DNA of 64,000 nt from NCBI GenBank assembly GCA_000965745.1, contig CP009479.1:2112001-2176000 (forward strand). The letters are read 5' to 3'. A program made the position numbers and the translations under genes. Origin of the DNA: an uncultured archaeon (GTDB taxonomy: Archaea; Thermoplasmatota; Thermoplasmata; Thermoplasmatales; Thermoplasmataceae). A model generated the notes under the pieces. That model was not told the DNA's origin and did no database searches. It saw only the letters and a program-made list of their open reading frames with translations. Of this stretch, positions 57,568-59,787 are shown piece by piece. Within the stretch, counting starts at the first letter, position 1, and each line of letters begins with the position of its first letter.

Positions 57568-58479
57568 TCATTCGCCCGCGATTACCTTCCTTTTTTCCCT
57601 GAACAGCTTCTCTATGTCGCCGTAGCCAAACCTGAACTCACTCATTGGAGTTTCTATGGCCTTCGATGAAACGATGATGCCCATGATTATGGAATCGCTG
57701 ATGCTCATTCCCTTCCACAGCCCCATGTACAGGCCTGACCTGAAAGAGTCACCTGCGCCTATTGTGTCGTACACTTTCTCTGCCGGAAGGATTGAAAAGT
57801 GATTGGAATCCCCATCCCGGAAAGCTGAAACCCCGCTCTGGCCACCGGTTATTATTATCGTTTCAATCTCCGACGTCAGTTCCTCATGGGACTTTCCTGT
57901 CAGCTCCTTAAGTTTTTGGTATTCCGCTTCGTTCCCAACAAACATGTCTGCACGGTCTATGAATTTTTGAGCAGTTTCCCTGCTGTACCTGTAGTGTATT
58001 TCCTGTCCCGGGTCAAATGTAACCTTGCTGCCCCCGAGCAGATCGAAAACTTTTGCGTATTCCTCCGGAGGGCCTGTTGAAAAATGTGCCCACTTGTAAT
58101 CAGAATCAGCTGAAAAATTTACTGCGGGAGACCATGAATCCATGGGGCCCTGGAATACGTATGCCACCTGGTCATTGCCGTCGGAAGATATATAGCAGAC
58201 CGGACCGTAGCTGTCTTTCAGCTGGTCGACGTGTTTCAGGTCGATGCCAATGGACGAGAGGTATTCAAGGTATTCAGCGTGGGTCTTCGGAGATACTGCT
58301 GAGTAAAGGTCAAAATCAAGCCCAAGTTTTCTTGAGACTATTGCAAAATTCCCGGCCGTGCCACCAAAATTCTCGGATACGTCTGTCACGTTGACCGACC
58401 CGACGCGCGGGAGTACTGGTACCCTTATCGATACATCAATGTTTATGTGACCAAAAAAAGCAAGGAAAGATGATGTCAT
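57568..58479 (-). CDS. PfkB/ribokinase family kinase (nucleoside kinase-like)
   Basis: GGTAGN, DPGQ, NEAE, DTIGAGDSF. Confidence 0.92.
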   Translation of the reverse strand: MTSSFLAFFGHINIDVSIRVPVLPRVGSVNVTDVSENFGGTAGNFAIVSRKLGLDFDLYSAVSPKTHAEYLEYLSSIGIDLKHVDQLKDSYGPVCYISSDGNDQVAYVFQGPMDSWSPAVNFSADSDYKWAHFSTGPPEEYAKVFDLLGGSKVTFDPGQEIHYRYSRETAQKFIDRADMFVGNEAEYQKLKELTGKSHEELTSEIETIIITGGQSGVSAFRDGDSNHFSILPAEKVYDTIGAGDSFRSGLYMGLWKGMSISDSIIMGIIVSSKAIETPMSEFRFGYGDIEKLFREKRKVIAGE

Positions 58480-58495
58480 CTCTCCCTTGATCCAA

Positions 58496-59152
58496 CTATC
58501 GTATTTGGTTATTGAGGTCTCTCAGGACGTTTCTGATTGTTACTTCGGAAACTCCTGCGAATTTTGAGATCTCGCCCTGAGTTCTCAGTTCACCCCTCTT
58601 CTGGCAGGAGATATACAAGCTTGCAGCTGCAATGGCGGAGGGCTTGAATGTTTTTGATCTCTTCTTCAGAGATTCTGAAAATTCAGAGCACGTGTCCTTT
58701 GCCATCTGGACGGTTCCCTCACTGATCATCAGCTTCTTCCCTATGGATGCTATCACAGCGTTGTGGTCAGGCATGCTCCTCTTGTATTTTGGCTCCAGGT
58801 CAAGGATCTTCTTGTATGTCCTCATTACAAGAACCGGGTCCAGCTGGTCGGGGAACCTTTTGCTCTTTGACTTCCCATAGAACGAGTTTGGAGCAACATA
58901 GGTGTTCAGTTCCCTGGCGGCCGCAATTATGCACGCTGCTACGGTATACCTGAAATCCTTGCCCCTCATAAGATCCTTCTTGGTAACATTCTGGTAAACC
59001 TCAAGGCTCTTGATCTGAAGCTCCTTGGGAAGATTCAGAAATCTGTTGAGCTCGTCATAGTACTGCAGGAAAATCCTGTCAGATACATTCCTTCTCATTA
59101 TTGAAATTTTGAACTGGTTAAACCTTTTGGCAAATGATATTGAACTGTCCAT
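58496..59152 (-). CDS. TFB/TFIIB paralog with cyclin-fold core only
   Basis: LMRGK..VAACIIAAAR and KPSAIAAASLYI..RTQGEISKFAGVSEVTIRN; no N-terminal zinc ribbon. Confidence 0.85.
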   Translation of the reverse strand: MDSSISFAKRFNQFKISIMRRNVSDRIFLQYYDELNRFLNLPKELQIKSLEVYQNVTKKDLMRGKDFRYTVAACIIAAARELNTYVAPNSFYGKSKSKRFPDQLDPVLVMRTYKKILDLEPKYKRSMPDHNAVIASIGKKLMISEGTVQMAKDTCSEFSESLKKRSKTFKPSAIAAASLYISCQKRGELRTQGEISKFAGVSEVTIRNVLRDLNNQIR

Positions 59153-59157
59153 TCACT

Positions 59158-59550
59158 TCACCCCTTCACGATGTCCTTGTAGAAATTCTCTACATTCACA
59201 ATTTCCGTTTTTTCACTCCGGCCCATTATGTCTTTTATCTCAGACGCCACCAGATTTTCTTTTCCATAGAGCATTGAATAAAATACCTGCCCCCCTTCGT
59301 GATGCATTACAATCTTCTCAGGAAATGAAAATTTTTCAAAGAATTTCGTGCATATTGCCCTGAACATTACATAGGATTCTTCCCCAACGTAAGACAGAGA
59401 TTCCACTATAATCCCTCTTCCTCTTCTGGTTATTTCGTTCACTTGGAGATTATCCTTTGTGAAATAGTAACCTACCTCGCGGATGCTTCCTTTATGTGCT
59501 TTTTCGCGCTTCGTCTGAAGGTACCGTACATTTCTCATGGATAGTTTCAT
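59158..59550 (-). CDS. Hypothetical protein upstream of the TFB paralog
   Basis: 130 aa ORF, 5 nt gap to the TFB-like gene with SD GGGGTGA, TATA box upstream. Confidence 0.65.
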   Translation of the reverse strand: MKLSMRNVRYLQTKREKAHKGSIREVGYYFTKDNLQVNEITRRGRGIIVESLSYVGEESYVMFRAICTKFFEKFSFPEKIVMHHEGGQVFYSMLYGKENLVASEIKDIMGRSEKTEIVNVENFYKDIVKG

Positions 59551-59563
59551 TTCGACCCACTTC

Positions 59564-59594
59564 TAATACGTATTACTAAAGAAGGTATATAAAA
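59564..59594 (-). promoter_or_regulatory. Promoter of the hypothetical/TFB-like operon with palindrome near the start site
   Basis: TTTTATATA 59594-59586; perfect palindrome TAATACGTATTA 59564-59575 overlapping GTATTAC 59570-59576. Confidence 0.55.
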
Positions 59595-59787
59595 GTTACG
59601 CCATTTTTTTCATCAAAATTATTAAATAGGGATGATGCTTTGTTTCAAATTGTACCTGTCTTTTAAATACTCGATATCAAAAATTCGACAAAAATGAACA
59701 AAACATTCACATTTCAAAAATATGAGAACCGGTAAAACCAGTTAAAATTGTCCAATTAAGTATTAGAATAATTGGACTCAGGTCAGA

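What the first reader, a model, noticed from the sequence alone, without database searches (positions are those of the whole stretch)
58496..59594. Zinc-ribbon-less TFB paralog in an operon with an unknown 130 aa protein
Seen: 218 aa protein with both cyclin repeats and an intact C-terminal HTH (RTQxEIxxxAGVSEVTIRN) but no zinc ribbon or B-reader. The upstream ORF has no CxxC, so this is not a simple split TFB. A perfect palindrome covers the expected start site. Known: the zinc ribbon recruits RNA polymerase while the core binds TBP and BRE; Sulfolobus TFB3 is the opposite truncation. Inference: a dominant-negative promoter blocker, or a two-part factor where the partner supplies the RNAP contact, which would be an undescribed transcription switch.
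Basis: partly seen in the sequence, partly recalled or inferred. Interest (0 to 1): 0.7.

Follow-up and report, generated by a model that had tools for sequence, protein, structure and literature searches.

The report
Ribbon-less TFB paralog with orphan partner
One small group of acid-loving archaea (Thermoplasmataceae) keeps a tightly conserved two-gene unit that encodes a copy of transcription start factor TFB without its polymerase-recruiting head, plus an unknown 130-residue protein. It is probably a built-in promoter-occupying regulator, and nobody has tested it.

Summary
ORF 58496-59152 (-) encodes a 218-aa protein made of the two TFIIB cyclin repeats and the C-terminal BRE-type HTH. It has no zinc ribbon, no B-reader and only a remnant of the B-linker. 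ORF 59158-59550 (-), 5 nt upstream, encodes a 130-aa orphan with one Cys and no family.

The genome also has two full-length TFBs and one TBP. The pair is not a recent truncation:
- All relatives found are 216-232 aa, down to 54% identity.
- The partner gene sits directly upstream in 8 of 8 contigs that show the neighbourhood.
- dN is 0.016-0.085 for the TFB core while dS is saturated. This is much tighter than the flanking pfkB and Cgi121.

The pair is an insertion between Cgi121 and pfkB. It was found only in the window's genus (4 species) and a sister metagenomic lineage, not in 104 other genera of the class.

The partner folds confidently (pLDDT 91) into an alpha/beta fold with no convincing structural match. 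Co-folding of the two proteins gave only weak support. The 12-bp palindrome is real but is at chance frequency and not conserved.

My best reading is a promoter-occupying, polymerase-blind TFB competitor or regulator tuned by its partner (about 0.45). A two-part initiation factor remains possible. This scan has noted ribbon-less TFB cores before on other DNA, and I confirmed an unrelated one in Thermoplasma.

The parts
58496..59152 (-). Gene for the ribbon-less TFB paralog ('TFBc', 218 aa). It comprises a remnant of the B-linker end, cyclin repeat 1 with a basic insertion, and cyclin repeat 2 with a BRE-type HTH.
   Evidence: Pfam PF00382 x2. NCBIfam TFB positions 112-305 of 312. PDB profile hit to P. 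woesei TFB core 1D3U/1AIS, E 3e-16. Foldseek best match 1d3u_B, E 6.6e-7. dN/dS about 0.01-0.04.
59158..59550 (-). Gene for the orphan 130-aa partner ('p130'). It is basic (pI 9.3), has one Cys and carries an invariant RRGRG hairpin.
   Evidence: No Pfam or NCBIfam hit. Only its own cluster was found in 1.84 billion representatives. AF2 pLDDT 91 with order b4-a-b2-a-b-a. No convincing fold match. It lies directly upstream of TFBc in 8 of 8 contigs.
59153..59164 (-). Gene junction. The p130 stop TGA is followed by a 5-nt spacer. A Shine-Dalgarno-like GGGGTGA overlaps the stop just upstream of the TFBc ATG.
   Evidence: Read from the sequence. In the 54%-identity relative the two genes overlap by 4 nt.
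59586..59594 (-). TATA box TTTTATATA of the pair's own promoter.
   Evidence: Conserved in all four species of the genus. It lies in a 29% GC intergenic region.
59595..59615 (-). Conserved block directly upstream of the TATA box (TGAAAAA..GGCGTAAC-like). It covers the BRE position and extends beyond it.
   Evidence: Alignment of the upstream regions of four species. Its function is inferred only.
59564..59575 (.). Perfect 12-bp palindrome TAATACGTATTA between the TATA box and the ATG.
   Evidence: Present. At chance frequency (19 observed, 15.2 +/- 3.9 expected) and not conserved in two of three congeners.
59727..59743 (-). Hairpin plus T-run after Cgi121. It probably ends the Lon-Cgi121 transcript, so that the pair starts a new unit.
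   Evidence: Pattern scan. This is a consensus match only.

Best explanation
The two genes form one co-expressed, lineage-specific regulatory unit.

TFBc keeps the promoter-recognition half of TFB: two cyclin repeats that flank TBP, and the HTH that reads the BRE. [quoted passage not shown] It should therefore sit on TBP/BRE-TATA promoters without recruiting polymerase. That would compete with the two full-length TFBs, either as a global or promoter-selective repressor or as a place-holder.

The orphan p130 is made in fixed proportion from the same mRNA. It probably binds TFBc, plausibly through the family-specific invariant N-terminal tail and the remodelled first repeat, and tunes its specificity or switches it on and off.

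Shown: domain content, conservation, selection, gene linkage, and the insertion into a housekeeping block.

Inferred: TBP and DNA binding, competition with TFB, and p130-TFBc contact.
For: Architecture:
- Two TFIIB repeats and no Zn ribbon.
- The HTH block RTQxEI..GV(S/T)EVTIRN is almost identical to canonical TFBs.
- In the RG[KR] motif (variants RSK, RNR) the last, basic residue, aligned with the second Arg of the canonical RGR, stays K or R in all six TFBc relatives.

Genome context:
- The genome has two full-length TFBs and one TBP, so canonical initiation is covered.

Published biochemistry:
- The zinc ribbon recruits RNAP, and the second cyclin repeat's HTH reads the BRE (PMC13502027, PMC7289017).
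- An engineered TFBcore with only the cyclin folds is transcriptionally inactive and out-competes full-length TFB in vitro (PMC10516927).
- There is precedent for a general-factor paralog becoming an inhibitor: TFS4 (PMC5715097).

Selection:
- TFBc dN is 0.016-0.085 and p130 dN is 0.05-0.18 with dS saturated.
- The neighbours are far looser: pfkB dN 0.23-0.37 and Cgi121 dN 0.40-0.65.

Linkage:
- p130 is directly upstream in 8 of 8 contigs, with a gap of 5 nt or an overlap of 4 nt.

Co-fold of TFBc and p130:
- Score 0.60 (runs 0.62, 0.60, 0.19); best control 0.01.
- That mark was reached by 58 of 80 solved complexes and 2 of 110 mismatched pairs. At 0.60 or under it was reached by only 7 of the 80 solved complexes and by both mismatches.
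- The runs agree in at least 0% of contacts, and partner pLDDT is at least 82. This is weak support only.
Against: - Only 36 of 98 columns that are at least 90% conserved in canonical Thermoplasmata TFB cores are kept in TFBc. In repeat 1 the figure is 14 of 46. Changes there include IRGRSIE to MRGKDFRY, and PRTLDE replaced by a longer basic loop. TBP binding may therefore be altered or lost.
- A passive competitor would not obviously need an invariant N-terminal tail or a dedicated, equally constrained partner.
- There is no expression or binding data.
- The co-fold support is weak, and no interface was returned.
Confidence: 0.45

Rival explanations
1. Two-part initiation factor. p130 replaces the zinc ribbon and B-reader by contacting RNA polymerase, so that the p130-TFBc heterodimer acts as a third, specialised TFB that drives a dedicated promoter set.
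For: - Obligate gene pairing and tight coupling.
- Both proteins are under strong constraint.
- The TFBc N-terminal tail is invariant and aligns with the end of the canonical B-linker.
- p130 is basic and has an invariant RRGRG hairpin.
- Weak co-fold support: 0.60 against 0.01 for the best control, with the caveats given.
- Heterodimeric atypical TBP/TFIIB-like factors do exist, for example poxviral VITF-3 (PMC12917281).
Against: - p130 has no CxxC and no profile similarity to the TFB N-terminal region (hhalign probability 0.4%).
- It has no resemblance to any known RNAP-binding domain in the fold searches.
- No RNAP contact was tested.
Confidence: 0.2
2. Repurposed DNA-binding regulator. TFBc no longer uses TBP. 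Alone or with p130 it acts as a sequence-specific repressor or activator of a few genes, possibly including its own promoter and the downstream pfkB-enolase block.
For: - Heavy divergence of repeat 1, where canonical-invariant motifs are lost.
- The TFBc clade sits on a very long branch outside both canonical TFB clades.
- A conserved block upstream of its own TATA box extends beyond a normal BRE.
- Only 16 nt separate the TFBc stop from the pfkB start.
Against: - The HTH recognition helix is nearly identical to that of canonical TFBs, which argues for BRE-like rather than new specificity.
- No repeated operator motif was identified.
- The palindrome is not conserved.
Confidence: 0.2
3. The function is not transcriptional. 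The cyclin folds serve as a protein-binding scaffold for p130 in some other process.
For: - Cyclin folds are general protein-binding modules.
- p130 has no nucleic-acid-binding family signature.
Against: - The DNA-reading HTH is among the best-conserved parts of TFBc.
- Both proteins are strongly basic, with pI 9.9 and 9.3.
Confidence: 0.1
4. A decaying remnant of a duplicated TFB (a recent truncation) beside a spurious ORF.
For: None beyond the missing N-terminal domain.
Against: - dN/dS is about 0.01-0.04 with saturated dS.
- All relatives, down to 54% identity, are 216-232 aa.
- The partner ORF is conserved, folds at pLDDT 91 and has dN well below its neighbours.
Confidence: 0.02

Closest known systems
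Canonical archaeal TFB (NCBIfam NF001658; core crystallised as P. woesei TFBc-TBP-DNA, PDB 1AIS/1D3U)
   Same: Two cyclin repeats and the C-terminal BRE-reading HTH. It is the best sequence and structure match.
   Different: No zinc ribbon and no B-reader, and only the tail of the B-linker. About 27-30% identity. 62 of 98 canonical-conserved core columns are changed. There is an insertion in repeat 1. It scores far below the family cut-off (81.8 against 384 bits). It has an obligate partner gene.
Engineered TFBcore used in M. jannaschii in vitro transcription (PMC10516927)
   Same: Cyclin folds only. It is inactive and out-competes full-length TFB, which is the behaviour proposed here.
   Different: It is a laboratory truncation of a canonical TFB. 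The protein here is a natural, diverged, selected gene with a partner.
Sulfolobales TFB3 (PMC6101594, PMC7289017)
   Same: A truncated TFB paralog that cannot replace TFB and acts as an accessory regulator.
   Different: The opposite truncation. TFB3 keeps the Zn ribbon, lacks the C-terminal HTH, and acts as an activator together with TFB1.
Thermoplasma 'transcription initiation factor IIB related protein' (228 aa; P0014-P0016)
   Same: A ribbon-less two-cyclin TFB paralog in the same family of archaea, also uncharacterised.
   Different: Only about 25% identical and on a separate long branch. There is no p130-like gene upstream; the upstream ORF is an 80-aa protein that ends in GG. It sits at a different locus.
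Poxviral VITF-3, an atypical TBP/TFIIB-like heterodimer (PMC12917281)
   Same: A TFIIB-like protein that works as an obligate heterodimer with a smaller partner.
   Different: p130 shows no TBP similarity (hhalign probability 0.3%). The systems are unrelated, so this is an analogy only.

Membership tests
Canonical TFB/TFIIB (NF001658) | N-terminal TFIIB-type zinc ribbon (PF08271) | tested here: not met
   No hit in the 218-aa protein. The genome-wide scan finds the ribbon only in the two full-length TFB genes. The open frame is 218 codons.
Canonical TFB/TFIIB (NF001658) | B-reader and B-linker | tested here: not met
   The alignment to the model starts at position 112 of 312. Only about 15-20 residues align with the end of the linker.
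Canonical TFB/TFIIB (NF001658) | Two cyclin-like repeats (PF00382) | tested here: met
   Two stretches, E 9e-17. Both are over the cut-off in the genome scan. PDB and Foldseek matches to TFB/TFIIB cores.
Canonical TFB/TFIIB (NF001658) | BRE-recognising HTH in repeat 2 | tested here: met
   RTQxEI..GV(S/T)EVTIRN is shared with canonical TFBs and invariant in the TFBc family.
Canonical TFB/TFIIB (NF001658) | Score above the curated family cut-off | tested here: not met
   81.8 bits against 384.
Canonical TFB/TFIIB (NF001658) | Binds TBP-DNA and recruits RNAP | not testable with these tools
This needs biochemistry.
Sulfolobales TFB3 | Zn ribbon kept, C-terminal HTH core lost, coiled coil present | tested here: not met
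   The domain content is the opposite (PMC6101594).
Thermoplasma ribbon-less 'TFIIB related protein' | Orthology (close sequence relationship, shared locus) | tested here: not met
   25% identity, E 1e-7. Separate long branches. Different neighbours.
TBP-like fold (for p130) | Profile or fold similarity to TBP | tested here: inconclusive
   hhalign probability 0.3% against an alignment of Thermoplasmata TBPs. The structure searches gave no clear match of any kind (best Z 5.9).
TFB N-terminal region (for p130, i.e. a split TFB) | CxxC...CxxC ribbon or B-reader similarity | tested here: not met
   One Cys only. hhalign probability 0.4% against TFB N-terminal regions. The predicted fold is a beta-rich alpha/beta fold.

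The most novel reading that the evidence does not exclude
The orphan p130 is a new kind of RNA-polymerase adaptor that replaces the zinc ribbon and B-reader. On this reading p130-TFBc is a split, heterodimeric alternative TFB, a sigma-like switch built from two polypeptides, that directs polymerase to a dedicated promoter set.
Probability: 0.15. Interest if true: 0.85.

Novelty: new variant of a known kind. Interest (0 to 1): 0.55.

Why it matters
Archaeal and eukaryotic transcription start with TBP and TFB/TFIIB. A laboratory-made TFB core is known to block initiation. In the literature searched here I found no natural, selected ribbon-less TFB that has been characterised.

This pair is a compact, strongly constrained and experimentally tractable case: two small proteins in a host with only one TBP and two TFBs. 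It can test whether cells use a 'headless' TFB as a built-in promoter blocker, or whether an unrelated small protein can supply the polymerase contact. Either result would add a new layer to archaeal gene regulation, and it would inform how TFIIB-family factors such as Brf, Rrn7 and viral TFIIB-like proteins diversify.

Tried and rejected
- Palindrome as operator: rejected. It is at chance frequency and not conserved. The sister lineage has a different inverted repeat (TTAACC-N4-GGTTAA) before the ATG, which I did not follow up.
- Recent truncation or pseudogene: rejected.
- Split TFB: rejected.
- p130 as TBP-like: no support.
- Fold searches for p130 gave nothing convincing:
  - Foldseek PDB, best E 0.08 (ExsC), TM about 0.25.
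  - VIA wide, best Z 5.9 to 2qzi, a protein of unknown function.
  - Second look, Z 5.2. Protein-kinase N-lobes scored only Z 3.2-4.0, which I treat as noise.
  - ESM Atlas shape search, TM 0.51-0.54, to an unnamed family and a GH97 domain.
  - BFVD viral library, best E 0.012, TM 0.37.
- Atlas feature search gave a viral hypothetical cluster and Rep_1 fragments with low shared-feature counts (155-156 of 256), so I treat it as unreliable.
- Mobile-element origin: no p130 relative in IMG/VR. No TFBc relative in the phage collection. Only ordinary full-length TFBs at 24-28% identity on haloarchaeal and Thermococcus plasmids. GC content is unremarkable.
- The G032 'short' TFB frame was an assembly gap of N's, not a truncation.
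- Rfam scan of the intergenic region: nothing.
- Origin of TFBc from TFB1 or TFB2: the tree cannot place it, because of the long branch.

Full report
**What is there**

On the minus strand, ORF 59158-59550 (130 aa, 'p130') is followed after 5 nt by ORF 58496-59152 (218 aa, 'TFBc'). The p130 stop is embedded in GGGGTGA, a Shine-Dalgarno-like string 6-12 nt before the TFBc ATG.

TFBc carries two Pfam TFIIB repeats (E 9e-17) and no zinc-ribbon hit. It aligns to positions 112-305 of the 312-position NCBIfam TFB model, at 81.8 bits against a cut-off of 384. A profile of the family hits the P. woesei TFB core of 1D3U/1AIS at E 3e-16. An AF2 model has mean pLDDT 73, with repeat 2 at 86-92 and residues 1-22 below 50. 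Its best Foldseek match is 1d3u_B, E 6.6e-7. The stop-to-stop frame is 218 codons, so no N-terminal domain is hidden.

p130 has one Cys, pI 9.3 and no Pfam or NCBIfam hit.

**Genome context**

The window lies in a 2.23-Mb single-contig genome. The genome has two full-length TFBs with zinc ribbons, arranged divergently about 0.9 Mb away, and a single TBP. Canonical initiation is therefore fully provided for.

The pair lies in the minus-strand series Lon - Cgi121 - [p130 - TFBc] - pfkB - hexapeptide protein - enolase. In related genera (G009, G013), Cgi121 is followed directly by pfkB, the hexapeptide protein and enolase. The pair, with its own AT-rich promoter region, is therefore an insertion into a conserved housekeeping block.

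A hairpin plus T-run follows Cgi121. The sequence TTTTATATA, with a conserved upstream block, precedes p130 in all four species of the genus. Only 16 nt separate the TFBc stop from the pfkB start, so read-through into pfkB is possible.

**Distribution**

- Both genes occur in all four species of the window's genus. TFBc is 88-97% identical and p130 is 75-93% identical. Neither was found in 37 other genomes of the family and order.
- A p130 profile found the gene in 1 of 105 genera among 401 genomes of the class.
- The same profile found only its own cluster among 1.84 billion representative proteins.
- The 5.8-billion-protein set holds five TFBc relatives (54-93% identity, 216-232 aa) and seven p130 relatives (54-94%).
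- A metagenomic sister lineage, whose Lon is 84% identical against 71-79% for other genera, keeps the order Lon - Cgi121 - p130 - TFBc.
- In 8 of 8 contigs that show the neighbourhood, p130 directly precedes TFBc.
- The congeners are MAGs labelled only 'Thermoplasmataceae archaeon'.

**Selection**

Between species of the genus, synonymous sites are saturated (pS 0.63-0.78). TFBc dN is nonetheless only 0.016-0.085, giving omega of about 0.01-0.04 where it can be computed. p130 dN is 0.05-0.18. The flanking pfkB (dN 0.23-0.37) and Cgi121 (dN 0.40-0.65) change far faster.

**What TFBc kept and lost**

In a tree of core domains the TFBc clade sits on a very long branch, outside both canonical Thermoplasmata TFB clades. 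Its origin cannot be placed.

Of 98 columns that are at least 90% conserved in canonical cores, 36 are kept: 14 of 46 in repeat 1 and 20 of 43 in repeat 2.

- The HTH block RTQxEI..GV(S/T)EVTIRN is essentially canonical.
- In repeat 1, IRGRSIE becomes MRGKDFRY. The basic residue after the Gly is kept in all six relatives.
- PRTLDE is replaced by a longer loop rich in Lys and Ser.
- The first 25 or so residues (ISFxxRFNQFKISIxRR) are invariant in the family. They align loosely with the end of the canonical B-linker.

**p130**

AF2 gives a confident model: pLDDT 91, pTM 0.85, order b4-a-b2-a-b-a. No search found a convincing relative:

- Foldseek PDB, best E 0.08.
- VIA wide, best Z 5.9, to a protein of unknown function.
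- Atlas shape search, TM about 0.5.
- BFVD viral library, E 0.012.
- Second look at the Foldseek matches, Z 5.2.

Profile comparison with TBP and with TFB N-terminal regions was negative, with probabilities of 0.3% and 0.4%. The invariant residues include a basic RRGRG hairpin.

**Do the two proteins bind?**

Co-folding gave a score of 0.60 (runs 0.62, 0.60, 0.19) against a best control of 0.01. That mark was reached by 58 of 80 solved complexes and 2 of 110 mismatched pairs. At 0.60 or under it was reached by only 7 of the 80 solved complexes and by both mismatches. The runs agree in at least 0% of contacts, and partner pLDDT is at least 82.

This is weak support. It adds a little to the strong genomic linkage but does not settle binding.

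**Mechanism**

Published work establishes three points. The zinc ribbon recruits RNAP. [quoted passage not shown] The HTH of the second cyclin repeat reads the BRE (PMC13502027, PMC7289017). An engineered TFBcore is transcriptionally inactive and out-competes full-length TFB (PMC10516927). Paralogs of general factors can evolve into inhibitors, as TFS4 did (PMC5715097).

On this basis the most likely reading (0.45) is a promoter-occupying, polymerase-blind TFB competitor or regulator whose activity or specificity is set by p130.

The remodelled repeat 1, the invariant tail and the equally constrained partner keep two rivals alive:

- A two-part initiation factor in which p130 supplies the RNAP contact (0.2). 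The poxviral VITF-3 heterodimer is an analogy (PMC12917281).
- A TBP-independent specific regulator (0.2).

**Palindrome**

TAATACGTATTA (59564-59575) is real, and its distal edge lies about where a start site is expected, 26 nt from the centre of the TATA box. However, the window has 19 such 12-mers against 15.2 +/- 3.9 in shuffles. It is degraded in one congener and absent in two. I do not count it as a feature.

**Novelty**

Ribbon-less TFB cores are not unique. Thermoplasma carries an unrelated 228-aa 'TFIIB related protein' that has been in public annotation for years. Earlier notes of this scan list further cases in other archaea and haloviruses (unchecked leads). Literature searches returned no paper that characterises a natural one.

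What is new here is a distinct, extremely constrained family with an obligate orphan partner. I class it as a new variant of a known kind, of moderate to good interest for archaeal transcription.

Noticed in passing
L044:1749-2453 (-) (G008:C33, Thermoplasma): An unrelated ribbon-less TFB paralog (234-aa ORF; database entries of 228 aa named 'transcription initiation factor IIB related protein') is conserved at 77-100% identity in Thermoplasma species. It has no p130-like gene upstream; the upstream ORF is an 80-aa protein that ends in GG. I found no characterisation of it in the searches run.
   Followed up: partly
G000:C1:1259821-1260693 (-) and 1261357-1262226 (+), outside the window: The two full-length TFB genes are arranged head to head, about 660 bp apart. 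The coordinates show the same divergent arrangement in many other genomes of the family.
   Followed up: no
window 59595-59787 (intergenic, minus strand): Several blocks of the Cgi121-p130 spacer are conserved across the four species. They are CAATTATTCTAATAC(T/C)TAA, TTTTTGATAT..AGTAT(T/A)TAAA and TACAATTTG(A/G)AA. A TAATACTTAA-like string recurs in the sister lineage. They may be regulator sites or a second promoter. There was no Rfam hit.
   Followed up: partly
L033:3130-3152 and L035:450-472: In the sister lineage the p130 ATG is preceded by an inverted repeat, TTAACC-N4-GGTTAA. This differs from the palindrome in the window.
   Followed up: no
window 58462-58487 (-): A terminator-like hairpin followed by a T-run overlaps the first codons of pfkB. 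The T-run encodes the conserved LAFFGH motif, so it may be a coincidence.
   Followed up: no
L045 (G032:C12:28691-29447): An apparent 251-aa 'short TFB' in another genome is a full-length TFB interrupted by a run of N (an assembly gap), not a truncation.
   Followed up: yes
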